From the IMG/VR virus record IMGVR_UViG_3300044796_000056, positions 12,221 through 76,220 of that record: DNA of 64,000 bases; one strand, written 5' to 3'. The position numbers and the translations under genes are program-made. Of the stretch, positions 1 through 26,910 are shown piece after piece; position 1 is the first letter of the stretch; each line of letters starts with the position of its first letter. Source of the stretch: a virus. Below the pieces are notes generated by a model. The model did not search any database. It was not told the DNA's origin and saw nothing but the letters and a program-made list of their open reading frames with translations.

Positions 1-66
1 AGGTTGGATCGCACCCAGCAGGACTTGAAGCAAGGAGTTAGTAGCTCTCCACGCCACCAGTATTAT

Positions 67-140
67 TCACTGATCGTCCAGCGGCAGGACATCTGGCTCT
101 GACCCAGAGAACCTAGGTTCGAATCCTAGTCGGTGATCCA
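67..140 (+). tRNA. tRNA-Gln(CTG)
   Basis: Cloverleaf: acceptor TCACTGA/TCGGTGA, arm TCTGG-CT CTG AC-CCAGA, TTCGAAT loop, CCA. Confidence 0.93.
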
Positions 141-154
141 GACTATATAATCTC

Positions 155-457
155 ATGCGCAAAGTAAGATTTCCTACTGATATTGAACGTGCAGCCTACA
201 GACGCAAAGTCGTCGCCCGTTTCAAACGGTTGAAAGGCTGTACTGACTGTGGCTACAAAGCCAATTCAGCAGCGTTAGAATTTGATCATGTCGACGAAAC
301 TACCAAGACCAAAACGGTAGGATCGTTGATGTACAACGGATGGAAAGACATCAAGAATGAAATAGCAAAATGCGTCGTACGATGTGCGAATTGCCACGCT
401 ATCAGAACACTTGAAAGAAACTACCGTAAGAAAGATTATGCCCGAGTGGTGGAATAG
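155..457 (+). CDS. HNH endonuclease
   Basis: CxxC...FDH...CxxCH motifs; 3' end overlaps tRNA-Leu. Confidence 0.85.
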   Translation: MRKVRFPTDIERAAYRRKVVARFKRLKGCTDCGYKANSAALEFDHVDETTKTKTVGSLMYNGWKDIKNEIAKCVVRCANCHAIRTLERNYRKKDYARVVE

Positions 458-522
458 GCAGACACACCGCGCTTAGAACGCGACGCGAAAGCATGCAGGT
501 TCGATTCCTGTCTCGGGTACCA
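440..522 (+). tRNA. tRNA-Leu(TAG)
   Basis: GCCCGAG/CTCGGGT, loop CT TAG AA, variable arm, ACCA. Confidence 0.92.
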
Positions 523-528
523 AGTTTT

Positions 529-590
529 GCTAGCAGAACGTCCTCTCACACCAGGCAATTAGAGCCGAAATGTCAAGACGCTGCGGCTAC
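529..590 (+). ncRNA. Pseudoknotted small RNA, copy 1
   Basis: Core CTCTCaCACCAGGCAATTAGAGCCgAAATGtCAAG shared with 1447-1504; flanking stems covary. Confidence 0.6.
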
Positions 591-594
591 CGTT

Positions 595-671
595 TGCGGG
601 TTGGAGAAGTGGCTATCTCGCTTGCCTCATAAGCAAGAGATCCTGGGTTCGAGTCCCAGACTCCGCTACCA
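595..671 (+). tRNA. tRNA-Met(CAT), initiator-like
   Basis: CTTGC-CT CAT AA-GCAAG; unpaired 1:72; ACCA. Confidence 0.85.
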
Positions 672-778
672 AATTTGTGGACTATTCATCGGGCGAGAGC
701 ATCCGCTGTAACAGGCGCGTGATGCCAGTGCAGGTGCTCAATCCATCGTTCTGCCTGACGATACAGGCTTCTTATTCT

Positions 779-853
779 GCCTTCAAAGCGTAAAAGGTGA
801 CGCGGTGGTTTTGTAATCCACAGAACACGGTTCGATTCCGTGTGAAGGCTCCA
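779..853 (+). tRNA. tRNA-Thr(TGT)
   Basis: GCCTTCA/TGAAGGC, loop TT TGT AA, CCA. Confidence 0.9.
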
Positions 854-863
854 AGTTTAGTTG

Positions 864-930
864 CCAGTTCTACCGGTCTCCGAGCCGGTCACCCGACACT
901 AGTGTGGCAGGGTGCACAAATACTGGACCA
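864..930 (+). ncRNA. Structured RNA ending in ACCA, not a cloverleaf
   Basis: CCAGT/ACTGG closing stem, hairpins ACCGG/CCGGT and CACCC/GGGTG. Confidence 0.5.
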
Positions 931-943
931 ATTCAAAGTTTAT

Positions 944-1029
944 GCGTCGTTGTGTGAGTGGTTAAAACAATCTGTCTGTAAAACAGATCTCTTCGGGGTA
1001 CGGTGGTTCGAATCCATCACGGCGCACCA
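944..1029 (+). tRNA. tRNA-Tyr(GTA)
   Basis: TCTGT-CT GTA AA-ACAGA, variable arm, ACCA. Confidence 0.93.
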
Positions 1030-1039
1030 ATTTCAATAT

Positions 1040-1118
1040 GGCACCTTAGCATAGCCTGGCTTAATGCGCTACCCTGTCACGGTAGAGATCACGGGTTCGA
1101 ATCCCGTAGGTGTCGCCA
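1040..1118 (+). tRNA. tRNA-Asp(GTC)
   Basis: CTACC-CT GTC AC-GGTAG, GCCA. Confidence 0.94.
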
Positions 1119-1123
1119 ATTAT

Positions 1124-1198
1124 GCCTCGTTAGCTCAGCGATAGAGCGCCTCGTTTACACCGAGGATGTCGGCGGTTTGATCCCGTCACGAGGTACCA
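1124..1198 (+). tRNA. tRNA-Val(TAC)
   Basis: CCTCG-TT TAC AC-CGAGG, ACCA. Confidence 0.93.
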
Positions 1199-1204
1199 GT
1201 TTAT

Positions 1205-1279
1205 GCCTCACTCGTCCAAAGGCAAGGACGGCTGCCTGATTAGCGGCAAATCGCGGTTCGAGTCCGTGGTGAGGTACCA
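1205..1279 (+). tRNA. tRNA-Ile(GAT)
   Basis: GCTGC-CT GAT TA-GCGGC (T at 37), ACCA. Confidence 0.88.
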
Positions 1280-1285
1280 ATCAAT

Positions 1286-1359
1286 GTCCGTCAAGTGTTA
1301 CGGTAGCACAGCTGTCTCCAAAACAGCGGGCCGGGGTTCGACTCCCTGGATGGACGCCA
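1286..1359 (+). tRNA. tRNA-Trp(CCA)
   Basis: GCTGT-CT CCA AA-ACAGC, GCCA. Confidence 0.92.
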
Positions 1360-1363
1360 AATT

Positions 1364-1438
1364 GCCCTTATAGCATAACGGATAGTGTACAGTCCTGCGA
1401 AGACTGTGATCCAGGTTCGATTCCTGGTATGGGCGCCA
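1364..1438 (+). tRNA. tRNA-Arg(GCG)
   Basis: CAGTC-CT GCG AA-GACTG, GCCA. Confidence 0.9.
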
Positions 1439-1446
1439 ATTTGTAA

Positions 1447-1504
1447 AGCCGGAACAGGCCTCTCGCACCAGGCAATTAGAGCCAAAATGCCAAGCCTCCC
1501 GGCT
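1447..1504 (+). ncRNA. Pseudoknotted small RNA, copy 2
   Basis: AGCCGG/CCGGCT, AGGC/GCCT, CTCT/AGAG; loop GGCA pairs downstream TGCC. Confidence 0.6.
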
Positions 1505-1513
1505 AATTTATTT

Positions 1514-1587
1514 CAGGGTAAGGTGTTACGGTAGCATCCGAGTTTTGGAAACTTGTGGCCGGAGTTCAACTCTCCGTACCCTGACCA
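1514..1587 (+). tRNA. tRNA-Pro(TGG)
   Basis: CAGGGTA/TACCCTG, loop TT TGG AA, ACCA. Confidence 0.88.
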
Positions 1588-1593
1588 ATTTAT

Positions 1594-1667
1594 GCGGGAT
1601 AAGTGTTTGGGTTACACGATAGTCTTCCAAACTATCATAGCGGGTTCGAGTCCCGCACTCCGCTCCA
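1594..1667 (+). tRNA. tRNA-Gly(TCC)
   Basis: ATAGT-CT TCC AA-ACTAT, TCCA. Confidence 0.9.
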
Positions 1668-1674
1668 AGTTTAT

Positions 1675-1748
1675 GCTTCTTTCACACAACTGAATCAGTG
1701 TGTAAACCATGTGAGCGCGCAAGCGGGTCGTTGGTAGAGGAGCTCCCA
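1675..1748 (+). ncRNA. tRNA-sized structured RNA with acceptor-like stem
   Basis: TTAT leader as before the tRNAs, GCTTCTT/GAGGAGC stem, 3' TCCCA, no T-loop. Confidence 0.45.
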
Positions 1749-1762
1749 ACCTCCTTTATTAT

Positions 1763-1837
1763 TCACTGATCGTCTAATTGGCAGGACGCGAGGCTTTGAC
1801 CCTCTGAATCTAGGTTCGAGTCCTAGTCGGTGATCCA
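1763..1837 (+). tRNA. tRNA-Gln(TTG)
   Basis: Paralog of 67-140; loop CT TTG AC. Confidence 0.92.
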
Positions 1838-1843
1838 GTTTTT

Positions 1844-1919
1844 GCTCCTATAGAATAGAGGCCCAGTTCGCGACCCTCTCAAGGTTGACACACCGGTTCG
1901 AATCCGGTTAGGAGCGCCA
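1844..1919 (+). tRNA. tRNA-Glu(CTC)
   Basis: CGACC-CT CTC AA-GGTTG, GCCA. Confidence 0.9.
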
Positions 1920-1926
1920 AATTATT

Positions 1927-2003
1927 CGGAGTGTAGCTCAGCCTGGTAGAGCGCGTGCCTTGGGCGCATGAGGTCGCAGGTTCGATTCCTGTCTCTCCGA
2001 CCA
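1927..2003 (+). tRNA. tRNA-Pro(TGG)
   Basis: Canonical CGGAGTG start, loop CT TGG GC, ACCA. Confidence 0.94.
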
Positions 2004-2006
2004 TCT

Positions 2007-2112
2007 TTAAGTTGACGAGAGTTGGCCGTGTCATGAGCGGCATCGCCTCAAGCTGGTACTGTCATGGGTATCACGGCGGACTACCGAATATTCCCGGAAC
2101 CGTTCAACTTAA
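2007..2112 (+). ncRNA. Rod-like structured RNA
   Basis: 9-bp terminal stem TTAAGTTGA/TCAACTTAA, inner GCCGTG/CACGGC. Confidence 0.5.
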
Positions 2113-2126
2113 TCTTTTCAGTTTAT

Positions 2127-2203
2127 GCACTTATCGTCTAGTGGCTCAGGATACTCGCCTTTCAAGCGGGATGACTGGGGTTCGAATCCCCATAGGTGCG
2201 CCA
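2127..2203 (+). tRNA. tRNA-Glu(TTC)
   Basis: CTCGC-CT TTC AA-GCGGG, GCCA. Confidence 0.92.
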
Positions 2204-2208
2204 ATTAT

Positions 2209-2283
2209 GCCTCTGAAGCTCAATGGAAGAGCAGCACGCTTCGAACGTGTTGGGTGCAGGTTCGAGTCCTGTCAGGGGTGCCA
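2209..2283 (+). tRNA. tRNA-Arg(TCG)
   Basis: GCACG-CT TCG AA-CGTGT, GCCA. Confidence 0.92.
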
Positions 2284-2360
2284 AATATGGACAAGGGTCC
2301 CGGTGAGTGTTCCACTTCACTGTACAACTAGAAGCCTGATGTATTTCAGGCAAGAATTAT

Positions 2361-2437
2361 GTCCTCTTAGCTCAACTGGATAGAGCGCCGAGCTTCTACC
2401 TCGGATGTTACGGGTTCGAGTCCTGTAGAGGATGCCA
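2361..2437 (+). tRNA. tRNA-Arg(TCT)
   Basis: CCGAG-CT TCT AC-CTCGG, GCCA. Confidence 0.93.
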
Positions 2438-2442
2438 TTTAT

Positions 2443-2549
2443 GACCGGTCTTGAGATGTAGGACACTACGATTTGATAGACGGATAAGTTCAATCTTGCC
2501 GCATACATATCAGCAAGTGGATTCGCGACTCGCGCGAACACGGTCACCA
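2443..2549 (+). ncRNA. ACCA-ended tRNA-like RNA with internal T-arm-like hairpin
   Basis: GACCG/CGGTC+ACCA; internal AAG-TTCAAT-CTT; TTCGCG/CGCGAA hairpin. Confidence 0.5.
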
Positions 2550-2556
2550 AGTTTAT

Positions 2557-2632
2557 TCTCCTGTACGCCAATGCCAGAGCGGCTGCCCAATACGGCAGTG
2601 GAAGTGAAGGTACAGTCCTTCCGGGAGAGCCA
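2557..2632 (+). tRNA. Degenerate tRNA, anticodon undetermined
   Basis: TCTCCTG/CGGGAGA+GCCA, CTGCC/GGCAG arm with 6-nt loop, aberrant T-loop TACAGT. Confidence 0.55.
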
Positions 2633-2637
2633 ATTAC

Positions 2638-2713
2638 GTCCTTGTAGCTCAGCGGATAGAGCGGCGATCTCCTACATCGCAGGTCGTGGGCTCGACTCCC
2701 ACCAAGGACTCCA
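2638..2713 (+). tRNA. tRNA-Arg(CCT)
   Basis: GCGAT-CT CCT AC-ATCGC, TCCA. Confidence 0.9.
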
Positions 2714-2872
2714 AGTTGCTCCACATTCCGGCCGGAGTGTACCCAATCCGCTAACGCAGAACGGGGCAATGCCAGGGAGCATTCAGTTTAGTCAGTACCG
2801 GTCACACGTCACCTGAAGACATAGGGCAGACCGGCTAAGAGATAGCATGCCAGACTACTGACATTTGATTAT

Positions 2873-2948
2873 GGAGTTTGTCAGCCAGCGGTTAGGCTCC
2901 CTCTCTGTGAAAGAGGTAACTCGGGTTCGAATCCCGACATTCTCCCCA
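2873..2948 (+). tRNA. tRNA-His(GTG)
   Basis: CCTCT-CT GTG AA-AGAGG; G-1 and C73. Confidence 0.9.
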
Positions 2949-2998
2949 ATAATTTTACCTTTCAATATATAAAAGTATCATCACTCTTTGAGGGTACT

Positions 2999-3709
2999 TT
3001 GATGCGCAACCCGCTACTAGCTGCTTTGATGGCTCTGTTGTTTGGTTGTACGCAAAGTAATTACGAACAGTCACTGACAGCAATTCGACTAGACATGGAT
3101 GACGGTAGCATTTGCTCCGGCACCATAGTGGGTCCTCACGTCCTATTGACAGCGGCGCACTGCCTTGAGCGAGAACCTATCATCAATCTGGATAAGATCC
3201 AAGATGATCAACAGGGTCCTCCTGCTCCACCAAAGAAACCCGAACCAAAGAAGCCTAAGAAACCATTCAACTTCTTGGACTTGATCACGATTCCTCCTCC
3301 ATTCACGTCAGTGGCCATCAATGGCCGTGAAACAAAGATTCTGTCTATTGTGCCTGATCACAACGACCATGTCTTAGTCGAGGTAGACTACACGTTCAAT
3401 CACTATGCCTCCTTGGCGGTCAACCGACCAGCTGTGGGTGGCAAAGTTCATTACTGGGGCAACCCTGCCGGTAAGCTCATGGTCTACCGGGAAGGCTACG
3501 TCAGCTTCTACGATAAGACGATGATGGAAATGGATGTCAACGGTTTCTTCGGTGACAGTGGTTCCGGTATCTTCAATGAAGCCGGTCAGATTGTAGGAGT
3601 CATGAACGTCATAGACTTCGATCATCACCACGGTTTACAATTTTCATTGATGGGTTCTGAGCAGCTAGAATTTACTCCACAACAGTTGGATATGCTCGGG
3701 ATTCAATAA
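2999..3709 (+). CDS. Trypsin-like serine protease, predicted lipoprotein
   Basis: TAAHC and GDSGSG catalytic motifs; LLFGC lipobox. Confidence 0.88.
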   Translation: MMRNPLLAALMALLFGCTQSNYEQSLTAIRLDMDDGSICSGTIVGPHVLLTAAHCLEREPIINLDKIQDDQQGPPAPPKKPEPKKPKKPFNFLDLITIPPPFTSVAINGRETKILSIVPDHNDHVLVEVDYTFNHYASLAVNRPAVGGKVHYWGNPAGKLMVYREGYVSFYDKTMMEMDVNGFFGDSGSGIFNEAGQIVGVMNVIDFDHHHGLQFSLMGSEQLEFTPQQLDMLGIQ

Positions 3710-3716
3710 AGTATAT

Positions 3717-3808
3717 GGATGGTTGGCAGAGTCCGGCTTATTGCACTAGTCTTGAAAACTAGCAGACCAGAAATGGTCACGTGGGTTCAAATCCTACACC
3801 ATCCGCCA
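3717..3808 (+). tRNA. tRNA-Ser(TGA)
   Basis: CTAGT-CT TGA AA-ACTAG, long variable arm, GCCA. Confidence 0.94.
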
Positions 3809-3958
3809 GAGCAAGGGAGACATGTTGGTTCGACTCCAACCGTGAACAGTACGGCTGCACGCAGGATATCTGGAACATCCGCTCCCGCTTGATCTAGACG
3901 CTCTCACTGCTTAGCGATACAGAGCAGTTGACCGGGAAGAAAGGTTCCCACGAATTAT

Positions 3959-4048
3959 GGGTGATTGGCCGAGCGGTTTAAGGCACCTGCCTAGAAAGCA
4001 GAAGAGGGCTAACGTCCTCCGTGGGTTCGAATCCTACATCACCCGCCA
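3959..4048 (+). tRNA. tRNA-Ser(AGA)
   Basis: CTGC-CT AGA AA-GCAG, long variable arm, G73 CCA. Confidence 0.88.
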
Positions 4049-4062
4049 GATTAAATGATTTT

Positions 4063-4139
4063 GCCCCACTGACGGAATTGGCATACGTACCACACTCAAA
4101 ACGTGGGTTTTCAGGGTTCGACTCCCTGGTAGGGCACCA
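4063..4139 (+). tRNA. tRNA-Leu(CAA), short variable arm
   Basis: Leu-type D arm, loop CT CAA AA, ACCA. Confidence 0.85.
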
Positions 4140-4298
4140 GATGTCTTGATGTTGATGTTTACAAGGTGACTTATGCGATAGCAATACGACCCTTAATGAA
4201 ATTTTACTTATAGAAAGTTTATAGATTGATTTTACATGTAATGGCGCAGAAAGTTGCCGGTCTCATAAACTGGCGATCAATGGGCCATGAAGTGTAAC

Positions 4299-4371
4299 GA
4301 CTTGCCAATTGTTAAGGCAGCATGCCCGGCTTTAAACCGGGAAGAGTTGGTTCGATTCCAACGACAAGTCA
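4299..4371 (+). tRNA. tRNA-like element with TTA (ochre) anticodon, no encoded CCA
   Basis: GACTTG/CAAGTC, CCCGG-CT TTA AA-CCGGG, GTTGG-TTCGATT-CCAAC; irregular D region. Confidence 0.55.
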
Positions 4372-4524
4372 TAGAAGATTGTATGCATTCCTAATGTCCG
4401 AGTCTGGTTACAGGTATACAATCTACAGGTCTTAAGGATACGAGCAGGCAACGTTGTTCTCCTGCTACGTTTAGGAACACGTCCTTACGGTGTGCTGGCC
4501 ACATAAAAGGTTCCTACTTATTAC

Positions 4525-4599
4525 GGGTTCTTAGCTGAGACGGATTAGCGCTGGTCTGAAAAGCCGGAGAGGAAGGATCGTTACCTTCAGTGCCCACCA
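4525..4599 (+). tRNA. tRNA-Phe(GAA)
   Basis: CTGGT-CT GAA AA-GCCGG; atypical T-loop; ACCA. Confidence 0.85.
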
Positions 4600-4683
4600 A
4601 TTTCGATTTTGGGTTCGACACCCAACGTTCAAGGACACCCGCAAGGGTGACTTACACTTGCGGCAGGAGCAATCATTTATTAC

Positions 4684-4761
4684 GGTGATGTGGCGGAGAT
4701 GGCTCATCGCGCTTTCCTCATAAGAAAGAGAACACTGGTTCGAGTCCAGTTATCACCACCA
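4684..4761 (+). tRNA. tRNA(CAT), Met or Ile2
   Basis: CTTTC-CT CAT AA-GAAAG, ACCA. Confidence 0.88.
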
Positions 4762-4767
4762 AGTTTA

Positions 4768-4905
4768 GGTCTGCGTTAGACCGTAAGGTCTCTATCTGGT
4801 TGACATGGGACGCAGTAATCGCTAACACCAAAGGAACCGCTAAGAACCGCAATCGGTTCTTGATGAGCAATCATCAGTCGGTAACGAACCCCATTAGCGT
4901 CCAAT
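4768..4905 (+). ncRNA. Multi-hairpin structured RNA
   Basis: CTGCGT/ACGCAG, AGACC-GTAA-GGTCT, AAGAACC/GGTTCTT, TGATGA-GCAA-TCATCA, CGCTAA/TTAGCG. Confidence 0.55.
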
Positions 4906-4913
4906 CTTTATAT

Positions 4914-5008
4914 GCTCCATAGCTCAGGTGAGCGGGTGCGTTTTATAAGCGCGCGAGAGTGGCCGGACTGGCTGCAACGGGCAGGTTCGAGTCCTGTATG
5001 GAGTACCA
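4914..5008 (+). tRNA. Noncanonical tRNA(TAT) with long variable arm
   Basis: GCTCCAT(A)/(T)ATGGAGT, 4-nt D loop, 6-bp anticodon stem with loop TT TAT AA, long extra arm, ACCA. Confidence 0.75.
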
Positions 5009-5012
5009 TCAT

Positions 5013-5090
5013 GCCTCTGTGGCGAAACTGGCAAACGCGGCGAACTTAAAATCCGCTCCATTGTGGGTTCGACTCCCTCCTGAGGCACCA
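5013..5090 (+). tRNA. tRNA-Leu(TAA), short variable arm
   Basis: Leu-type D arm, loop CT TAA AA, ACCA. Confidence 0.85.
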
Positions 5091-5092
5091 TT

Positions 5093-5312
5093 TGATTGAT
5101 CTCCCGGGATGTGCCGGGTGAAGATTCGGGTCGGCGAAAGCCGAGAGCGAGAGTGAGTGTAAGCCTGTAAGATCGGGTCAGCTGAGTACAGCACATGCTT
5201 CTAAAGAGTCGATGACAACTACCAGCGAAGACAGGGTCTTTGATACGCTGGGATACAAATCCTGAACTGTTGTCTAAAGCACCACGAGCGGTAGTCCAAT
5301 CCGCATCAATCA
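5093..5312 (+). ncRNA. 220-nt multibranched RNA
   Basis: Terminal TGATTGAT/ATCAATCA, TCGGC-GAAA-GCCGA, GACAAC/GTTGTC, CCAGCG/CGCTGG. Confidence 0.6.
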
Positions 5313-5320
5313 TCTTCTTC

Positions 5321-5394
5321 GACTGTATAGCTCAATGGTAGAGCAACGCCACGACACGGCGAAGACCAAGGCTCGATTCCTTGTACGGTCACCA
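5321..5394 (+). tRNA. tRNA-Val(GAC)
   Basis: CGCC-AC GAC AC-GGCG (C33), ACCA. Confidence 0.85.
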
Positions 5395-5396
5395 TA

Positions 5397-5924
5397 TCAA
5401 TTCAAAGGCAATCCTCTTGACTTACGACCGTTGCCCCTATTCCTACCATGAGCAGTAGGAGTCATCGCGTGGCAATTAGGACACAACAATCTAAGGTTTG
5501 ATGGGAGATTATTCCCAGCATTCCCATCGATATGATCCAGTTCAAGTGGAATGGGTGATACTTTCCAATCTGTTAGAAGACAGTCTTCACATTTATGTCC
5601 TCTCAAATCTATGAGATATCTTTTCAGATAATATCTATCGGTGTAGCTGCCAGAAAGTATTTTTTGCTCTCGATTATCACGTATCTTTTCAAGGGTGAGT
5701 TTGTCTGATTTAGGCTTGCCTGTTCCTAATCTGTTATTGGTCAATTTGATAGCACAAGAATGAGAACAGAAAGTGTATTTCCTACGGTCATAATCTATCA
5801 CCTTCCCACACCACTTACATAGTGTGGGATTTTCTAGATAGTGTTTTATATTCGCTGCTCGTTTTGCGTTGGATGTTGCTATGGAGGCAGCGCCTCCCAA
5901 TTTTCCCGCTTCTGATTTGTTCAT
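5397..5924 (-). CDS. HNH endonuclease, antisense insertion in the tRNA array
   Basis: CEDC...LELDHIDG...NLRLLCPNCH; AT-richer than flanks. Confidence 0.9.
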   Translation of the reverse strand: MNKSEAGKLGGAASIATSNAKRAANIKHYLENPTLCKWCGKVIDYDRRKYTFCSHSCAIKLTNNRLGTGKPKSDKLTLEKIRDNREQKILSGSYTDRYYLKRYLIDLRGHKCEDCLLTDWKVSPIPLELDHIDGNAGNNLPSNLRLLCPNCHAMTPTAHGRNRGNGRKSRGLPLN

Positions 5925-5926
5925 AT

Positions 5927-6000
5927 GCCCTTGTAGTCTAATGGTAAGACAGTTTCTTGGTAAGAAACAGTATTTAGTTCGATTCTAAACTAGGGCACCA
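5927..6000 (+). tRNA. tRNA-Thr(GGT)
   Basis: GTTTC-TT GGT AA-GAAAC, ACCA. Confidence 0.9.
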
Positions 6001-6012
6001 TTATTCGTTCCT

Positions 6013-6040
6013 CACAGTTCGATTCTGTGTTGGGGCTCCA
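6013..6040 (+). pseudogene. Orphan tRNA 3' half (T-arm, acceptor strand, TCCA)
   Basis: CACAG-TTCGATT-CTGTG-TTGGGGC-TCCA with no 5' half of its own. Confidence 0.65.
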
Positions 6041-6163
6041 GTTTCGATGATTTGTCAAGTCCCATATTTCGTAGGAGTGTCTTCTAACGAGGATTCTCGA
6101 GACCAAACAAGCCATCGATCTCAATTGTTTACTCTTACAGTTAGATAGAGTATGATAGTATAC

Positions 6164-6319
6164 ATGAAGACGGTCGCTATGGTGATTGTGTTCGCAGCCT
6201 TAACGGGCTGCGCCAATGCCCGTATCTATGCGTTTTGTGATAAACGTATCGACAAGGACCAGAAGACACATTATCATTGCGACAAACAACATATGATTGG
6301 TTTTGGCTATAAATTCTGA
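6164..6319 (+). CDS. Small predicted lipoprotein (51 aa)
   Basis: MKTVAMVIVFAALTGC lipobox; promoter directly upstream. Confidence 0.65.
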   Translation: MKTVAMVIVFAALTGCANARIYAFCDKRIDKDQKTHYHCDKQHMIGFGYKF

Positions 6320-6327
6320 GGTGTGAC

Positions 6328-6657
6328 TTGAGCAACATTGTACTATTGAAATTGATCAGCGACGTTGATTTGGTCGCACAACGAGTTTCCGAGCCGAACG
6401 TAGCACCGCTGAAGGTTCAGCATTGCGTTCAGCTATTGATGCAGCAGGATCCTCAATCCGGTAAGATTGGTTTCGTACCAATGCCGTGGGGAGTGCTGGC
6501 AGGTTCTGATTTTATCTTCACGTTCGATGATACGAAGCTGGTCTATGGACTAGAGGCTCCGGCCGAACTTGAAGCACTGTATCGTAAAATTCATGGTATG
6601 GTGGAATTGCCTTCCAAGGGACTGTTGATCCCAGGACAAGGTCCAAGCAAGAGATAA
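6328..6657 (+). CDS. Hypothetical protein
   Basis: GAGG SD upstream of TTG start. Confidence 0.7.
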   Translation: MSNIVLLKLISDVDLVAQRVSEPNVAPLKVQHCVQLLMQQDPQSGKIGFVPMPWGVLAGSDFIFTFDDTKLVYGLEAPAELEALYRKIHGMVELPSKGLLIPGQGPSKR

Positions 6658-6663
6658 GTTTAT

Positions 6664-6741
6664 GTTGTGGTGGCTGAGCGGCCCAAAGCATCTGTCTGCA
6701 AAACAGTAACACCATCGGTTCAAATCCGATCCACAACTCCA
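6664..6741 (+). tRNA. tRNA-Cys(GCA)
   Basis: Loop CT GCA AA, U73 CCA. Confidence 0.92.
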
Positions 6742-6793
6742 AATTCGCGCTGCGTGCTAAATAATATCATGATGTTACATTGATAGGTGATTT

Positions 6794-7399
6794 ATGTCAG
6801 CGATGGATGTGTTGGTTGTCGATAAGGGTGGAAACCCTCGGGACTGGTTGAACTACCAGGACACCGTTAAGGCTTACGCAGAGGATAGGGTTATTTGTAA
6901 CCTAGGATCTCACGTGCGCACTTATGTCGGTGGCCGCAATTCAACTGGCAAGCTCTCTAAGATTGAGATCTCATCTATTGTTATGGTCACCGGCCCAGTG
7001 CTTGGTGAGAAGTTCAAGTTCCGTGTAACCAAGTTCGCTGAGCGTCCTATTCTGTACGCTCGTGACTGCTACATGTGCGCTTACTGTGGTATCGTCCATA
7101 AGGACACGAAGTCAATTGATCTTCATTTGACCATTGATCATGTGATGCCTCGCTCACGCGGTGGTGATCACACTTGGACGAATACGGTAACGTCGTGCGC
7201 TGCTTGTAACCACGGTAAGGCAGACAGGACTCCGGAGGAAGCAGGAATGCAGCTTCTGTATGTTCCTTACGCACCTAACCTTCAGGAGAAGCTACTTCTG
7301 AAGAACCGCAAGGTGAAGGCCGATCAGATGGATTACTTGTTGTCTGTCATTCCGAAGACTTCAAGGATTCACCAGAACGTTCAACATTTGCGTAATTGA
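6794..7399 (+). CDS. HNH endonuclease (McrA-like)
   Basis: RD..MCAYCG...TIDHVMPRSRGG..W.N.VTSC..CN..K. Confidence 0.92.
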   Translation: MSAMDVLVVDKGGNPRDWLNYQDTVKAYAEDRVICNLGSHVRTYVGGRNSTGKLSKIEISSIVMVTGPVLGEKFKFRVTKFAERPILYARDCYMCAYCGIVHKDTKSIDLHLTIDHVMPRSRGGDHTWTNTVTSCAACNHGKADRTPEEAGMQLLYVPYAPNLQEKLLLKNRKVKADQMDYLLSVIPKTSRIHQNVQHLRN

Positions 7400-7402
7400 T
7401 AT

Positions 7403-7492
7403 AGAAGGTTGCCAGAGTGGTCTAATGGCGCAGTTTGCTAAACTGATGGTTCCGAAAGGGGCACAAGGGTTCAAATCCCTTACCTTCTGCCA
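7403..7492 (+). tRNA. tRNA-Ser(GCT)
   Basis: Loop TT GCT AA, long variable arm, GCCA. Confidence 0.92.
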
Positions 7493-7496
7493 GAGT

Positions 7497-7640
7497 TTCC
7501 GGTTAACCTCGTAAGAGGCCCAATCGGTTCGTTGAGTATAGAGGCTCAATGTTCAGGTATTGCAACCTGTGATAAGCCTTGGGACAAATAATGTCACTCC
7601 CGCCGTTGCTAAGTGGATAGGGCATAACAAACTCCGAGGA
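7497..7640 (+). ncRNA. Multibranched structured RNA
   Basis: CCTC-GTAA-GAGG, CCCAA/TTGGG, TTGAG/CTCAA, CAGGT/ACCTG. Confidence 0.45.
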
Positions 7641-7650
7641 TACATTTGAT

Positions 7651-7821
7651 ATGACGAGTAAAGAAGAGGTATGGGCCGATCGTTGCTTCGTCATGATGGA
7701 GATAAGGAATCTTGTTCCACTACTCCAGGGAGAGCTCCTTGCCCGGTACAACGAGTTCCTTCTCAAGCCGATTGAGTACCGCAACTATATTCGTGAACTG
7801 GTGATACATTATGACACGTGA
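7651..7821 (+). CDS. Hypothetical protein (56 aa)
   Basis: GAGGA SD; open frame overlapping next gene. Confidence 0.55.
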   Translation: MTSKEEVWADRCFVMMEIRNLVPLLQGELLARYNEFLLKPIEYRNYIRELVIHYDT

Positions 7822-8278
7822 CGCACAAACAATCGCAAAAGAACTTCAAGAGATCGAACGCAAGAAGCGCGACCTTCAAGATGAACAAACTAAGCTCTAC
7901 TGGGCTTCCGAGCGCTTGAAGCGCCAAGCCAAGAAGAGCACATTGACGGCTGGTAGCTGGGTGAATGGCATAGGCCAGATCATCACGACTGGAGATCTTT
8001 GTGTTGGTGTCACGGCTAACCGAGGAGCCAAAGTCACGGTTGGTACCTTTGCAGGATTCAGAGAACGTGGTGGCAAGGTCACTTCAGTCAGTCTGAACAT
8101 CATGAAGGAAGTCTATTACTACCAGACAACCGATGGTAAGCTTCACAAGCGATATCCTCTGGTTGATGGACGTAGGAACTACAGCATCTCTTACTCCAGA
8201 ATCAAGAAGCAAGAGATCCGCCGACAGTCATTCACACAGATGCGGGTTTACAAGATCCAACCGACGCAGACAGATTAA
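7811..8278 (+). CDS. Basic hypothetical protein, paralog of 8626-9150
   Basis: Shared N..G.II..GD....T...G motif and C-terminal RR......R.Y. Confidence 0.75.
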   Translation: MTRDAQTIAKELQEIERKKRDLQDEQTKLYWASERLKRQAKKSTLTAGSWVNGIGQIITTGDLCVGVTANRGAKVTVGTFAGFRERGGKVTSVSLNIMKEVYYYQTTDGKLHKRYPLVDGRRNYSISYSRIKKQEIRRQSFTQMRVYKIQPTQTD

Positions 8279-8361
8279 CGCGGCTGGATTAGCAGCCAAA
8301 CGGACGCCACACCGTCTGAGAGCCCAAGACCGGTTAAGGGTGCAGGAAATGTGGCACTGAT

Positions 8362-8602
8362 TCAACAAGTCGACCTAACGCGGCAGATAAGGATGTTTGT
8401 CGAGGAAGTTCGCGACTGGCGCAGAGGACGAGTAGGAGCGAAAGCGACAAACTACCGTGATACAGCCAGCAATCTAAACAGAACCAGGGAATCCTTTGCT
8501 TATTGGTTCGGGTTAGAGCACCCACTCAACGGAGTGGGATTGATCGAAAGGTCTTTAGGCAAATGTTAGGATAGAACAGAATCGCGGCTACGGACTTGTT
8601 GA
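8362..8602 (+). ncRNA. rnpB: RNase P RNA, compact, reduced specificity domain
   Basis: P1 TCAACAAGTC/GACTTGTTGA; P2 CCTAAC/GTTAGG; GAGGAAGTTCGCGA and AACAGAATCGCGGCTAC forming P4; P5 CTGGC/GCCAG; P6 GCAGAGGA/TCCTTTGC; P15/P16. Confidence 0.85.
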
Positions 8603-8625
8603 TAATTTATTAAGATGGAGTTAAT

Positions 8626-9150
8626 ATGGCATTGCGCAAACCAGTTGAACTTCCCTATGAGAATGATCTAGGTCACATCATCAATGTTGGTGATAAGGTC
8701 TTGATCGTAACTACCGGCTACAGTCACAGCGTCTCGGTACGCATGGGCACCTACCTGGGCAAGATCCGCGACGACAAGGACAGCGATTACGAATCTGGTT
8801 GTGTCGTGATGGTAGATGAAGAGCGCAGGGTTCTCCGTCACAAGGAAACCAATGAGGAGCTCGACTGGGAGAAACACATCGAACCGGCTACCGGTCCACG
8901 TCCTGAGTATCCCACACTACACCATGTGCAATGGCTGAGCAGAGTTCGTCTGACTGATGAACAGAACAAAGAGAATGCTGAACGCCAGGCAGCGCACAAG
9001 GTTGCCACCGATCTGTATAATGCTAAGCAGGTGGAAGTGATGAAGAACTTCCACCACGTCTATGAACCATACACTCGGCGCACAACTTTGCAGCGGAACC
9101 GGATCTATCCAGTGAACATGGGTCTCAAAGAGTTCATCCGACAGATCTAA
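8626..9150 (+). CDS. Hypothetical protein, paralog of 7811-8278
   Basis: GGAG SD; NDLGHIINVGDKVLIVTTG motif. Confidence 0.8.
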   Translation: MALRKPVELPYENDLGHIINVGDKVLIVTTGYSHSVSVRMGTYLGKIRDDKDSDYESGCVVMVDEERRVLRHKETNEELDWEKHIEPATGPRPEYPTLHHVQWLSRVRLTDEQNKENAERQAAHKVATDLYNAKQVEVMKNFHHVYEPYTRRTTLQRNRIYPVNMGLKEFIRQI

Positions 9151-9165
9151 TAAATATCTGATAAC

Positions 9166-9240
9166 GCTCTGTAAGTGTTACCGGTAGCACAGTTGTTTCG
9201 TAAGCAACAGGCTAGGGTTCGACTCCCTAACAGAGCACCA
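9166..9240 (+). tRNA. tRNA-Thr(CGT)
   Basis: GTTGT-TT CGT AA-GCAAC, ACCA. Confidence 0.9.
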
Positions 9241-9254
9241 CTTCAAGGATCCGC

Positions 9255-9569
9255 ATGCTTCCGATGATCAAGTGGACGGAGAAGCGCTCCCGGCAGCGCA
9301 ACATGACCCTACACAATCACGTAGCCGTCATGGTCATCAAAGATGGCAAACGTCTTTGGGGGAAAGTTCTCAACCTTTCAATTGGTGGCGCATTGATTCA
9401 CTTTGATGAAAGTTTGGAAGCCACTAAAAACAGTCGCTTGGAACTTGTTTTCACCAACGCGCTAAATAACGGCAAGCTAGTCAAGGTCTTCTTCAAGATG
9501 GGAACTGTGATCCACATCACAGGTGGCAATATTGGTCTAGCGATAGGAAATCGAACGATCAAACTCTAA
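9255..9569 (+). CDS. PilZ-domain protein
   Basis: EKRSRQR (RxxxR) and NLSIGG (D/NxSxxG) motifs. Confidence 0.8.
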   Translation: MLPMIKWTEKRSRQRNMTLHNHVAVMVIKDGKRLWGKVLNLSIGGALIHFDESLEATKNSRLELVFTNALNNGKLVKVFFKMGTVIHITGGNIGLAIGNRTIKL

Positions 9570-9666
9570 ACCTTCCAGGAGCTCCATGCTCACCTTAATC
9601 ACCATTTCTGCTGGTATTTTGGTCACACTTTACTTCTGTGCTGTGTTCGAGTATAATAGTCGTCAT

Positions 9667-10119
9667 ATGAACAAGACTCTCTACATCGTCCGAGGCCTGC
9701 CAGGTTCTGGTAAGTCTACTCTTGCGGCCCAAATGGCCGAGGAGAAGGGTATCACCTACCATGAGACCGACCAATTCCTCTACAACGATGCTGGTGTCTA
9801 TGAATGGTCAGAGGAACGGCTGGGCCGAGCTATTGACCTTTGCTATGATCAGGTTTTGTCCAAGATCAACGACGGCAAGTCTGTGATAGCCGTTGGTTGC
9901 TACACCCGCTGGCGCGCCTTCCGTGACTATGTGGAATTGGGTCACAAGCACGGCTACCAGGTAGAGATCATCACTTGCCTGGGCGAGTTTGGATCCATCC
10001 ACGGGATTCCAAAGGACAAGTACGAGAAGATGAAGACCCGTTTCATCGCCAGCAAGGCTCTCCCTCAGCAAGCCGGTATCAAGTACACCGAGCATCTGCC
10101 AGAACCGTGCTTGTTTTGA
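9667..10119 (+). CDS. P-loop kinase (PNK/AAA_33-like)
   Basis: LYIVRGLPGSGKST; start chosen downstream of TATAAT. Confidence 0.85.
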   Translation: MNKTLYIVRGLPGSGKSTLAAQMAEEKGITYHETDQFLYNDAGVYEWSEERLGRAIDLCYDQVLSKINDGKSVIAVGCYTRWRAFRDYVELGHKHGYQVEIITCLGEFGSIHGIPKDKYEKMKTRFIASKALPQQAGIKYTEHLPEPCLF

Positions 10120-10322
10120 CCAGATTCTGTTCTTACAGAACCGGATAGACGAACTGTCGGAGGAGATCTCCTCCCTTCGGGCATTAAGTAAAATGACTCA
10201 GTCACAAGGCCACCTCTCTGCCATCCGGCTCCTAGAGACGAGGAGAGATTCCTTTCTACAGGCCATCGAGCTATGGCGCGCCGTTCTGAAGGTCTACCCG
10301 AACATTGAAGAAGTTCAGAACC

Positions 10323-10394
10323 GTTAACTAGCGCTCGAAAATATCTTAAGAATAAGTTAAATCAGCAACTATTCATAAGAATTAGGCGTATAAT
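10323..10394 (+). promoter_or_regulatory. Repeated early promoter cassette, copy A
   Basis: GTTAACTAG...TAAGTTAAATCAGCA...GCGTATAAT. Confidence 0.75.
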
Positions 10395-10401
10395 AGTCCA
10401 C

Positions 10402-10626
10402 ATGAATAAAGAAATACCTGCTCGTTTCGTCGGCCGCGTCGGTGATCGTCTCCTAGTGAATGCTAGTGAGTTCCTCGGTACTCCGGCTGCTATGTCCACC
10501 GTCGTTGAAGTCACTGACTTCGGCTATCTGGTTCACGTTGACGGTGATGAGCCTGAGTGGTTTGGTCCTGTGGATTTCGACGGTAACGTCCTGATTGAAT
10601 CTCCCTCCGGCTTGGTGCGCGCCTAA
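10402..10626 (+). CDS. Early hypothetical protein
   Basis: ATG 7 nt after TATAAT. Confidence 0.7.
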   Translation: MNKEIPARFVGRVGDRLLVNASEFLGTPAAMSTVVEVTDFGYLVHVDGDEPEWFGPVDFDGNVLIESPSGLVRA

Positions 10627-10868
10627 TGTACAAAGTCTTCGACAAGCGTATTTCTGGAATGAAGTACGAGCTCCGTGAGATCCAGCCTACCCTCGGCAAG
10701 AACTACTGGATCGTCCGCGATGAGACCGGCAAGATGGTCGCTCTTTGCTTCGACAACATCTACCTTTTCCCTCTCGCTTCCCACTACGCTCTGATCTTGG
10801 ATGAGAAAGCTCAGCAGGCGTATGATCTTGCCCGCGATCAACAGGACGCGGCTGAAGCGTACCGCTGA
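10626..10868 (+). CDS. Early hypothetical protein
   Basis: TAATG coupling with the previous gene. Confidence 0.7.
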   Translation: MYKVFDKRISGMKYELREIQPTLGKNYWIVRDETGKMVALCFDNIYLFPLASHYALILDEKAQQAYDLARDQQDAAEAYR

Positions 10869-10920
10869 CGAAGATGAAGAGCGTGCACGACGTGCACTGT
10901 ACGACACCGTCATCGTGTGC

Positions 10921-11004
10921 TAAACCGGTACTAGTTAACGTTCTGGAAATATTGTTCGCTATTAAGTTAAATTAGCACCCTAAGTGACAGATTAAGCGTA
11001 TAAT
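10921..11004 (+). promoter_or_regulatory. Repeated early promoter cassette, copy B
   Basis: CGGTACTAGTTAACGTT...TGTTCG...TAAGTTAAAT.AGCACCCTAAGTG...GCGTATAAT. Confidence 0.85.
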
Positions 11005-11011
11005 ACTTCCC

Positions 11012-11254
11012 ATGACTACAGAAACTGAAAAGCGCAAGGAAGCCACCCAGGCCAAGGCCGCTGCGTTCATCGCCGCTGTCCAGGCTGTGATGAAGGCTCA
11101 TGAAGTCACCGAGTTTGCGGTGCACATGGAGTCTGGTCGCGGCTGGGAAGGTTACACTGGCGCGCACATTGAGATCGAGTTTGCGTCGCATTCGACGGAA
11201 GCCGGTTACGAGTACTTCGACACGACTGAGATTTCTGGGATTGAGGTAAAGTAA
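11012..11254 (+). CDS. Early hypothetical protein
   Basis: ATG directly after cassette. Confidence 0.7.
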   Translation: MTTETEKRKEATQAKAAAFIAAVQAVMKAHEVTEFAVHMESGRGWEGYTGAHIEIEFASHSTEAGYEYFDTTEISGIEVK

Positions 11255-11904: not shown

Positions 11905-11911
11905 ACTCTGT

Positions 11912-26906: not shown

Positions 26907-26910
26907 ATAG

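What the first reader, a model, noticed from the sequence alone, without database searches (positions are those of the whole stretch)
523..8360. tRNA-punctuated array of about 17 unexplained structured small RNAs
Seen: tRNA spacers are either a few AT-rich bases or 55-220 nt self-closing structures (529, 690, 864, 1447, 1675, 2007, 2289, 2443, 2717, 2791, 3810, 4232, 4605, 4768, 5093, 7497, 8281), often with GNRA loops and the same TTAT-type leader as the tRNAs. Inference: tRNA processing would release each as a discrete RNA, making the array an expression platform for a library of phage sRNAs (decoys, antitoxin mimics or aptamers). Best candidate for an undescribed system together with the RNase P RNA.
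Basis: partly seen in the sequence, partly recalled or inferred. Interest (0 to 1): 0.88.

Follow-up and report, generated by a model that had tools for sequence, protein, structure and literature searches.

The report
Mixed small RNAs in phage tRNA array
The long gaps between the roughly 40 tRNA genes of this uncultured T4-like peat phage hold a mixed set of folded RNAs, not one system, and the clearest of them is a small hairpin absent from Rfam that elsewhere sits beside a predicted RNA-cutting toxin-like gene, so the phage copies may act as toxin decoys.

Summary
The + strand of window 67-9240 is one tRNA array, and its long gaps fold better as a set than coding controls. They are enriched about fourfold in GNRA-capped hairpins and are flanked by the same A/U-rich TTAT linkers as the tRNAs. 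They are not 17 equivalent sRNAs.

(1) 536-583 and 1453-1500 are two copies of a 48-nt hairpin (HP1) that is absent from Rfam. It was recovered in 63 distinct sequences with strong covariation. About 20 contexts are phage tRNA arrays. In 17 other contexts it abuts a stand-alone MuF-C/PBECR (RelE/colicin-D-like RNase fold) gene.

(2) Five units are stem-closed, NCCA-ended, tRNA-shaped RNAs with no usable anticodon.

(3) Two gaps hold tRNAs that default ARAGORN missed; one has a UUA anticodon.

(4) Three gaps hold bare T-arm fragments.

(5) The remainder are structured-looking, but I found no homologue in 11 other arrays.

There is no usable expression evidence. The closest precedent is T4 RNAC/RNAD. 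The testable novelty is HP1 as a possible RNA partner or decoy of MuF-C RNases. Other agents of this scan have already noted structured RNAs in phage tRNA arrays on many other genomes.

The parts
67..9240 (+). tRNA array. It continues about 820 nt upstream of the window, from contig position 11397. There are 33 tRNAs in the window, all on the + strand, and nearly all encode CCA.
536..583 (+). HP1 copy 1. A 48-nt hairpin: variable stem P1, internal loop CUCUC/CAA, one covarying pair, a C.C mismatch, ACA/UGU, loop CCA/GAAA, P3 GGC/GCC, apical loop AAUUAGA. It starts about 10 nt after the CCA of tRNA-Leu.
   Evidence: model R1 scores 66.4 bits; covariation
1453..1500 (+). HP1 copy 2, with compensatory changes against copy 1 (CGUC/GACG to AGGC/GCCU; A-U to G-C). 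It lies between tRNA-Arg(GCG) and tRNA-Pro(UGG).
   Evidence: 62.6 bits
676..768 (+). Gap unit after tRNA-Met. It folds no better than shuffles.
   Evidence: z -0.2 to -0.5; no homologue
864..930 (+). Stem-closed three-way junction ending in stem-A-CCA. A tRNA-shaped RNA with no anticodon loop.
   Evidence: z -1.5
1674..1757 (+). Gap unit with a GCAA-capped hairpin. Weak fold.
   Evidence: z -0.8
2007..2113 (+). 107-nt long-stem-closed unit.
   Evidence: z -2.5 to -3.6
2289..2352 (+). Three-hairpin unit. A lake-water contig covering 2259-2430 differs at 1 of 172 positions, while that run's coding contigs differ by 2-12%.
   Evidence: z -2.8; table 8
2443..2549 (+). Four-way junction with a long middle arm, ending GGUC-A-CCA. 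Its counterpart by position in L004 (11341-11424) is a tRNA-like gene with an 11-nt anticodon loop.
   Evidence: (z -2.3)
2557..2632 (+). Cloverleaf with an 8-bp acceptor stem, a 6-nt 'anticodon' loop, an atypical T loop and G-CCA. Conserved in L004 and L047 with a compensatory acceptor change.
2718..2783 (+). Stem-closed unit (GCUCC/GGAGC) with no CCA.
   Evidence: z -1.7
2791..2863 (+). Unit closed by a 7-bp stem (GUCAGUA/UACUGAC), with no CCA.
   Evidence: z -1.05
3809..3950 (+). Gap after tRNA-Ser(UGA). It holds a bare T-arm-like hairpin at 3824-3840 and is otherwise not structured beyond chance.
   Evidence: z +0.1; family D12
4232..4298 (+). Very stable 67-nt extended hairpin whose 7-nt loop CUCAUAA matches a tRNA-Met-type anticodon loop.
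   Evidence: z -5.3, 0 of 200 shuffles
4301..4370 (+). Non-canonical tRNA with anticodon UUA (it would read UAA). No encoded CCA.
   Evidence: ARAGORN -ps85; RF00005 29.9 bits and RF01852 31.8 bits; fold
4371..4515 (+). Gap unit before tRNA-Phe. A 16-nt block is shared with L004.
   Evidence: z -0.8
4605..4672 (+). T-arm-like hairpin (4603-4623) followed by a GCAA-capped hairpin.
   Evidence: z -1.6
4838..4903 (+). 66-nt cloverleaf: a 6-bp closing stem, three arms capped by tetraloops (CAAU, GCAA, GUAA), then U-CCA. It lies at the same position (upstream of tRNA-Ile(UAU)) as a different NCCA-ended tRNA-like unit in L004.
   Evidence: z -3.9
5093..5314 (+). 222-nt multi-hairpin gap that includes a GAAA-capped hairpin.
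   Evidence: z -1.2 to -1.5
5321..5394 (+). tRNA-Val(GAC), missed by default ARAGORN.
   Evidence: RF00005 58 bits
6007..6040 (+). Acceptor/T-arm minihelix ending U-CCA, directly after tRNA-Thr(GGU). It looks like a duplicated tRNA 3' half.
   Evidence: z -2.6; family D10
7493..7640 (+). Structured stretch between tRNA-Ser(GCU) and the ORF at 7651. It may be a 5' UTR.
   Evidence: z -1.0 to -1.4; GUAA hairpin
8279..8360 (+). Structured stretch after the ORF at 7811-8278. It is not a tRNA spacer.
   Evidence: z -1.7

Best explanation
The array is a long tRNA operon, or a few operons, of a distant T4-like myovirus. Its long inter-tRNA gaps carry a heterogeneous set of passenger RNAs. Because every unit lies on the tRNA strand and is bounded by the same A/U-rich linkers, the host enzymes that separate polycistronic tRNAs would also release the stem-closed units as discrete small RNAs. 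Those enzymes are RNase E in A/U-rich linkers, RNase P at 5' ends, and 3' exonucleases that stop at a stem or at NCCA. This release step is inferred.

Four kinds of unit are present.
(a) Two copies of HP1, a widespread covarying 48-nt hairpin RNA. Outside arrays it forms a two-part module with a stand-alone MuF-C/PBECR (BECR-fold, RNase-like) gene on plasmids and prophages. In the phage it most likely acts in trans on such a protein, as partner, inhibitor or decoy. This role is inferred.
(b) Five acceptor-stem-closed, NCCA-ended, tRNA-shaped RNAs that cannot decode. They are probably derived from tRNA genes and kept for their shape.
(c) Non-canonical tRNAs that gene finders miss.
(d) T-arm fragments and lineage-specific structured sequences. 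Some of these are probably relics of tRNA-gene turnover.
For: Layout and linkers. T4-like identity.

Structure of the set: z -1.93 against -0.67 for coding pieces, p = 1e-4; GNRA hairpins 6 against 1.3.

HP1: the exact core recurs in other viral and metagenome contigs. The degenerate-P3 pattern finds it in 45 genome and 34 viral loci. On 63 distinct sequences 93.4% of cells pair, 12 of 14 pairs show changes on both sides, and slid controls pair at 20-37%. G.U outnumbers A.C 28 to 14, which favours this strand. In arrays HP1 is always on the tRNA strand, just 3' of a tRNA.

HP1 and MuF-C: 17 of 68 contexts have a MuF_C gene ending 45-85 nt from the core, and no other neighbour is conserved. The MuF_C model (pLDDT 92) resembles BrnT, RelE, colicin D and CdiA-CT RNases. 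MuF-C was described as a PBECR predicted RNase or RNA-binding domain (PMC5512222). A 3.66-kb Aeromonas veronii plasmid carries only RepB, Mob and MuF_C plus HP1. The complete Aeromonas phage 62AhydR11PP carries a near-identical HP1 but no MuF_C. Neither this contig nor five other array-bearing phage records, one of them complete, encode MuF_C.

tRNA-shaped units. The cloverleaf is conserved in L004/L047.
Against: There is no evidence of transcription, processing or accumulation. The one RNA-labelled run shows flat, DNA-like depth and contigs identical to those of the DNA run.

Fifteen of the 19 long gaps have no homologue in the 11 other arrays, so most units rest on folding statistics alone. 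Several fail those statistics individually.

The invariance of the HP1 core is partly built in by the search patterns. HP1 lies in both orientations relative to MuF_C (6 tandem, 11 convergent), which also fits a bidirectional terminator or a DNA-level element. The fold-search Z scores are modest (under 6). No binding or toxicity was tested.
Confidence: 0.6

Rival explanations
1. Most gaps are debris. They are decayed or partly duplicated tRNA genes and recombination scars left by rapid gain, loss and shuffling of tRNA genes and by HNH homing endonucleases. Residual acceptor and arm helices make them look structured, and they have no function of their own.
For: Bare T-arm fragments lie at 3824-3840, 4603-4623 and 6010-6040, and a duplicated tRNA-Thr 3' half follows tRNA-Thr. 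There is a graded series from tRNA-like genes with 6-, 9- or 11-nt anticodon loops in L004 to tetraloop-capped cloverleaves here. Fifteen of 19 gaps lack homologues even in the nearest arrays, L004 and L047. Two Pfam-supported HNH genes (plus a small Cys/His-rich ORF of no family at 155-457) sit inside the array.
Against: HP1 and the 2557-2632 cloverleaf are conserved with compensatory changes. GNRA-capped hairpins are enriched fourfold. The units fold at least as well as the real tRNAs. Decay should erase helices rather than cap them with tetraloops. Phage genomes are compact. The 2284-2360 gap is nearly invariant in a related strain.
Confidence: 0.25
2. The units are cis-acting processing or stability elements: punctuation that guides RNase P, E or III cleavage, or protective 3' hairpins for the neighbouring tRNAs. 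They are not trans-acting sRNAs. Under this reading HP1 is a specialised 3'-end or terminator hairpin.
For: NCCA-ended acceptor-like stems and minihelices are RNase P-type substrates (own knowledge). HP1 begins within about 0-15 nt of a tRNA 3' end in arrays. Elsewhere it lies 45-120 nt after an ORF stop, sometimes with a U-run (L006, L040, L066). It occurs in both orientations at the 3' end of MuF_C.
Against: Most tRNAs here are separated by only 4-12 nt with no such element, so extra punctuation is not needed. A plain terminator does not need a core of about 28 nt that stays constant, on top of covarying stems, across Gamma- and Betaproteobacteria and phages. HP1 in arrays usually lacks a U-run. 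HP1 tracks one protein family in particular.
Confidence: 0.15
3. HP1 is a DNA-level element, such as a mobile-element end, a single-strand hairpin or a recombination site, that hitch-hikes into tRNA arrays. It is not an RNA.
For: HP1 is found on plasmids, prophages and phages, and about 210 nt upstream of a HEARO/IscB element in L071. Its orientation relative to MuF_C varies.
Against: G.U pairs outnumber A.C pairs 28 to 14. It has strict same-strand polarity with the tRNAs in about 20 arrays. The stems covary between lineages rather than being identical copies. No transposase is consistently nearby.
Confidence: 0.07

Closest known systems
Phage T4 RNAC and RNAD (species 1 and 2 stable RNAs of the tRNA region)
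   Same: Small non-tRNA RNAs encoded inside a T4-type phage tRNA cluster and transcribed with it. Their function is still unknown (PMC3014915; PMC9697503).
   Different: No sequence relation was tested or seen. Here there are about 20 units of several kinds instead of 2, and one of them (HP1) also occurs outside phages, next to a specific protein gene.
Type III toxin-antitoxin antitoxin RNAs (ToxI of ToxIN) and phage-borne pseudo-ToxI escape (own knowledge)
   Same: A small structured RNA sits beside an endoRNase-like toxin gene on plasmids with no protein antitoxin gene. Phages carry the RNA alone, which is how pseudo-ToxI lets a phage escape ToxIN.
   Different: ToxI is a tandem repeat array upstream of a ToxN (Kid/MazF-like fold) toxin and is cut by it. 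HP1 is a single copy, downstream of or convergent with a BECR-fold protein. Toxicity, binding and processing are all untested.
MuF-C / PBECR domains of phage polyvalent proteins (Iyer et al. 2017, PMC5512222)
   Same: The protein next to HP1 matches Pfam MuF_C (PF18819). [quoted passage not shown]
   Different: That paper, in the passages I read, describes solo and fused PBECR domains and names no associated RNA element.
YrlA / bacterial and phage Y RNAs (Rfam RF02553)
   Same: tRNA-like non-coding RNAs encoded among phage tRNA genes. They act by binding a protein, not by decoding.
   Different: The only RF02553 hit (25.7 bits, gathering 69) spans two real tRNAs. There is no Ro60/TROVE gene in the contig.
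tRNA-like RNase P substrates and acceptor/T-arm minihelices (own knowledge)
   Same: Units 864-930, 2443-2549, 2557-2632, 4838-4903 and 6007-6040 have a closing stem followed by N-CCA, as tRNAs do.
   Different: They lack canonical D, T or anticodon loops, and cleavage was not tested.

Membership tests
tRNA (Rfam RF00005) | Score at or above the gathering threshold, with a cloverleaf and a 7-nt anticodon loop | tested here: not met
   No gap unit except 4299-4370 reaches E <= 1. 2557-2632 is called only by relaxed ARAGORN, with a 6-nt loop. 4301-4370 and 5321-5394 do qualify as tRNAs.
tRNA-shaped RNA (acceptor-type stem plus N-CCA) | A 5'/3' closing stem followed by a discriminator base and an encoded CCA, then the tRNA-type linker | tested here: met
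   Five units: 864-930, 2443-2549, 2557-2632, 4838-4903, 6007-6040. Across 12 arrays, 7-bp stem plus NCCA occurs 39 times, against a mean of 20.6 (sd 10.2) for other trinucleotides. This enrichment is weak.
Any Rfam 15 family (for HP1) | Covariance-model match | tested here: not met
   Nothing at E <= 1 over 9.6 kb. Over 81 nt the only hit is a chance 9.9-bit one. Nothing is found at HP1 in 11 other loci.
Type III toxin-antitoxin system | An RNA antitoxin gene adjacent to an endoRNase toxin gene, with no protein antitoxin | tested here: inconclusive
   Adjacency is seen in 17 of 68 contexts, with no other conserved neighbour. A minimal plasmid carries only Rep, Mob and MuF_C plus HP1. The arrangement differs from known type III systems.
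Type III toxin-antitoxin system | The toxin is toxic, and the RNA binds and neutralises it | not testable with these tools
   Needs expression and binding assays.
Type III toxin-antitoxin system | The antitoxin is a tandem repeat array processed by the toxin | tested here: not met
   HP1 is single-copy at each MuF_C locus.
BECR-fold RNases (RelE/ParE, colicin D/E5, PBECR) - for the HP1-linked protein | BECR fold and a Pfam MuF_C match | tested here: met
   PF18819 at E 1e-8 to 6e-14. Fold hits: BrnT Z 5.9, CdiA-CT 5.8, RelE 5.1, colicin D 4.7, and the list is consistent. Foldseek gives BrnT probability 0.97. The Z scores are modest.
T4 RNAC/RNAD-type stable RNAs | A non-tRNA RNA encoded within a phage tRNA cluster on the tRNA strand | tested here: met
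T4 RNAC/RNAD-type stable RNAs | Accumulates as a discrete stable RNA | tested here: inconclusive
   The only RNA-labelled run holds the locus as DNA-like contigs.
Bacterial/archaeal RNase P RNA (for the adjacent 8362-8602 stretch cited by the finding) | Covariance-model score at or above gathering | tested here: not met
   12.9 bits to RF00373 (gathering 84), E 0.11 in a 371-nt search. There is no hit to the bacterial RNase P models.
YrlA / Y RNA | An RF02553 match and a Ro60 (TROVE) partner | tested here: not met
   (the contig is only 44% complete)

The most novel reading that the evidence does not exclude
HP1 is the RNA component of an undescribed two-part module in which a stand-alone MuF-C/PBECR endoRNase-like toxin is held in check by, or acts on, a 48-nt structured RNA. 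The module sits on plasmids and prophages of Gamma- and Betaproteobacteria. Many phages, including this one (two copies), express orphan HP1 from their tRNA arrays or early regions as an anti-toxin decoy. That would make tRNA arrays an expression platform for anti-defence RNAs, alongside tRNA-shaped NCCA decoys for tRNA-targeting nucleases.
Probability: 0.3. Interest if true: 0.85.

Novelty: new variant of a known kind. Interest (0 to 1): 0.66.

Why it matters
Phage tRNA clusters have been known since T4 to encode extra stable RNAs of unknown function (RNAC, RNAD). This array shows how large and mixed that hidden RNA content can be. It also gives one concrete handle on it: a covarying RNA motif absent from Rfam that recurs in about 20 phage tRNA arrays and is otherwise tied to a predicted RNase of the RelE/colicin-D fold on plasmids and prophages.

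If HP1 neutralises that protein, it would be a new class of RNA-protein toxin-antitoxin or defence pair, and a new RNA-based counter-defence. It would also help explain why large phages invest in tRNA arrays. The idea can be tested directly in cultured Aeromonas, using plasmid NZ_LT635657.1 and phage 62AhydR11PP.

The tRNA-shaped, anticodon-less NCCA RNAs also matter for annotation. Gene finders either miss them or may mis-call them as tRNAs.

Tried and rejected
- **Rfam.** No family matches any gap or HP1 at other loci.
- **H-type pseudoknot for HP1** (CUCU:AGAG, GGCA:UGYC), proposed in another first-stage note. The first helix pairs in only 60% of cells, with two of its four pairs unpaired in 14 of 20 sequences. 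The second is excluded because P3 covaries freely while UGUC stays constant.
- **Relatives through the array's trypsin-like protease.** Its homologues are not in tRNA arrays, so they were no help.
- **Relatives through ORF 8626-9150 and through a cloverleaf/tRNA-Arg junction pattern.** These found none, or only L004.
- **GenBank phages.** Nothing close at the DNA level. The best protein relatives are Pelagibacter, Methylophilales and cyanophage T4-likes at 34-40% identity.
- **Expression.** It therefore holds DNA and says nothing about transcription. No starts or ends can be read from contigs.
- **Promoter and terminator scans.** No more sites than in shuffles.
- **NCCA-after-stem enrichment across 12 arrays.** Weak: 39 against 20.6 +/- 10.2, and AT-rich trinucleotides score as high.
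- **PADLOC, NCBIfam and PDB sequence searches for the MuF_C protein.** No match.
- **Reciprocal search from MuF_C in IMG/VR.** Only 3 loci, 2 of them with HP1. This sample is too small to count.
- **Ro60/TROVE in the contig.** No match.
- **Paper searches.** Searches for the HP1 sequence and for 'tRNA array' small RNAs found nothing relevant.

Full report
**What the locus is.** The window is positions 12221-76220 of a 76-kb IMG/VR viral contig that CheckV rates 44% complete. Baseplate and tail proteins match T4-type families (gp5, gp6, gp7, gp8-like PHROGs). The closest cultured relatives are Pelagibacter, Methylophilales and cyanobacterial T4-like myoviruses, at only 34-40% protein identity. 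ARAGORN finds 31 tRNAs in window 1-12000, all on the + strand. Rfam adds 5321-5391 and a partial hit at 4308-4362. The array starts about 820 nt upstream of the window and holds five or six more tRNAs there. Nearly all the tRNAs encode their CCA. They are separated either by 4-12 nt of A/U-rich linker (AGTTTAT, ATTAT, TTTAT) or by gaps of 70-385 nt.

**Are the gaps structured beyond chance?** No gap matches any Rfam 15 family at E <= 1. Whole gaps mostly give MFE z-scores between about 0 and -2.9. When trimmed to the stem-closed units, the mean is -1.93. That compares with -0.67 for 60 length-matched coding pieces (Mann-Whitney p = 1e-4) and -1.29 for 20 of the phage's own tRNAs. The trimming was done by eye and inflates the effect somewhat. 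Hairpins with stems of 4 bp or more capped by GNRA tetraloops occur 6 times, against 1.3 in dinucleotide shuffles (2 of 500 reach 6) and 1.5 per equal length of coding sequence. As a set the gaps carry RNA-type structure. Individually, 676-768, 1674-1757, 3809-3950 and 4768-4836 do not differ from shuffles.

**HP1, the best-supported element.** Gaps 523-595 and 1439-1513 share a 36-nt core, and their flanking stems differ but still pair. The exact 17/18-mer recurs in 5 other viral contigs and 54 metagenome contigs, about half of which are true copies. A pattern that left the inner stem free found 45 genome and 34 viral loci.

A covariance model (R1) recovers 63 distinct copies. On these, 93.4% of cells pair, against 20-37% when partners are slid. 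Twelve of 14 pairs show changes on both sides. The first inner-stem pair is G-C 22, C-G 20, A-U 14 and U-A 7. The isolated pair next to the conserved C.C mismatch is U-A 37, C-G 20 and A-U 2. The alignment is fitted to the model, and the pattern searches fix part of the core, so the invariance of the core is over-stated. The helices themselves are solid.

The H-type pseudoknot proposed in another first-stage note is not conserved. G.U pairs outnumber A.C pairs 28 to 14, which favours an RNA read from this strand.

**Where HP1 occurs.** About 20 contexts are phage tRNA arrays. There HP1 is always on the tRNA strand and begins within roughly 0-15 nt of a tRNA 3' end. The remaining contexts are plasmids, prophages and bacterial contigs, mostly Gamma- and Betaproteobacteria.

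In 17 of 68 distinct contexts a gene of 135-160 codons ends 45-85 nt from the core. It is in tandem in 6 cases and convergent in 11, and no other neighbour is conserved. That gene is a stand-alone Pfam MuF_C domain. Its AlphaFold model (pLDDT 92) resembles BECR-fold RNase toxins: BrnT Z 5.9, CdiA-CT 5.8, RelE 5.1, YafQ, colicin D 4.7, colicin E5 and ParE. The Z values are modest but the list is consistent. Iyer et al. described MuF-C as a phage BECR (PBECR) predicted RNase or RNA-binding domain (PMC5512222). The family here keeps an invariant FDH motif and invariant T, S, R and K residues.

A 3.66-kb mobilizable Aeromonas veronii plasmid carries only RepB, Mob and MuF_C convergent with HP1. 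The complete Aeromonas phage 62AhydR11PP has an HP1 that is almost identical, stem included, but has no MuF_C anywhere. The same is true of phage 4_D05, and the plasmid served as the positive control for that search. This contig and five other array-bearing phage records, one of them complete, also lack MuF_C.

An RNA beside a toxin-like RNase on plasmids, and the RNA alone in phages, is the pattern expected of an RNA antitoxin and its phage-borne mimic. Nothing about toxicity or binding has been shown.

**tRNA-shaped, non-decoding units.** Five units are closed by an acceptor-like stem followed by a discriminator base, an encoded CCA and the usual linker: 864-930, 2443-2549, 2557-2632, 4838-4903 and 6007-6040.
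- 2557-2632 is a cloverleaf with a 6-nt 'anticodon' loop. It is called only by relaxed ARAGORN and is conserved in L004 and L047 with a compensatory acceptor change.
- 4838-4903 is a 66-nt cloverleaf whose three arms end in tetraloops (z -3.9).
- 6007-6040 is an acceptor/T-arm minihelix that looks like a duplicated 3' half of the preceding tRNA-Thr.

The nearest array, L004, has different NCCA-ended tRNA-like units at matching positions, with 9- and 11-nt anticodon loops, and also a 48-nt NCCA hairpin. This points to descent from tRNA genes with the shape retained but decoding lost. The statistical enrichment of stem plus NCCA over other trinucleotides across 12 arrays is weak.

**Other contents.** 4301-4370 is a tRNA with anticodon UUA and no encoded CCA. 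It is preceded by a very stable hairpin (z -5.3) whose loop, CUCAUAA, is that of a Met-type anticodon loop. 5321-5394 is tRNA-Val(GAC). Bare T-arm-like hairpins open the gaps at 3809 and 4600.

In an all-against-all comparison with 11 other arrays, only 4 of the 19 long gaps have a match. Those are the two HP1 gaps, the gap 2438-2637 through its cloverleaf half (2557-2632), and a protein-coding gap. A lake-water run holds a contig over 2259-2430 with 1 difference in 172 nt, while its coding contigs differ by 2-12%. This is a weak hint of constraint on the gap at 2284-2360.

**Expression.** Promoter and terminator scans are uninformative.

**Mechanism.**
- *Shown:* strand, linkers, helices, conservation of three units, and the HP1/MuF-C association.
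- *Inferred:* co-transcription with the tRNAs; release by RNase E, RNase P and exonucleases; trans action of HP1 on PBECR RNases; a decoy or scaffold role for the tRNA-shaped RNAs; relic status for part of the rest.

**Comparison and novelty.** The closest known case is T4 RNAC/RNAD, small RNAs of unknown role from the T4 tRNA region (PMC3014915, PMC9697503). Earlier notes of this scan describe similar passenger RNAs in many other phage arrays, so the general phenomenon is not new to the scan. What is new here is the HP1 family, its covariation-backed structure and its link to MuF-C/PBECR genes. I found it neither in Rfam nor in the searchable literature.

Noticed in passing
window 4301-4370: A tRNA with anticodon UUA, which would read the UAA stop codon. 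It has a 3-bp D stem and no encoded CCA, unlike its neighbours. I did not check whether the phage reads UAA through.
   Followed up: partly
window 4914-5008; L004 10625-10720: tRNA-Ile(UAU) of 95-96 nt with a long extra arm, conserved in the related array L004. Another note of this scan describes phage tRNA-Ile genes with a relocated D-loop. I did not examine this here.
   Followed up: no
window 8362-8602: The stretch another note calls a minimal RNase P RNA aligns end to end with the archaeal RNase P model, but at only 12.9 bits (gathering 84, E 0.11 in a 371-nt search). Its MFE z is -2.4. The claim is neither established nor excluded.
   Followed up: partly
contig 10230-11396 (L146), just upstream of the window: About 1.2 kb without ORFs of 70 codons or more directly heads the tRNA array. 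It has no Rfam hit at gathering. An NCCA-ended stem-closed 81-nt unit lies at contig 11955-12035.
   Followed up: partly
window 26878-27172: A permuted (two-piece, Betaproteobacteria-type) tmRNA gene (RF04321 at 129 bits, RF01850 at 92 bits). It may hint at the host lineage.
   Followed up: no
window 155-457, 5397-5924 (-), 6794-7399: Two Pfam-supported HNH endonuclease genes (5397-5924 on the - strand, 6794-7399) sit inside the tRNA array, which fits homing-driven turnover of the array. The small ORF at 155-457, rich in Cys/His, matched no Pfam family.
   Followed up: partly
L071 8610-10497: In a 443-kb metagenome contig, HP1 lies about 210 nt upstream of a HEARO RNA (98 bits) and its IscB (RRXRR + HNH) gene.
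   Followed up: partly
window 9255-9569 and 2999-3709: A stand-alone PilZ-domain gene lies just after the array, and a trypsin-like protease gene lies inside it. Homologues of the protease in other phages are not in tRNA arrays.
   Followed up: partly
L003 (several places, e.g. 3191-3262, 6030-6100): Other phage arrays hold many acceptor-stem plus NCCA genes with canonical T arms that default ARAGORN does not call. tRNA counts in such phages are therefore underestimates.
   Followed up: no
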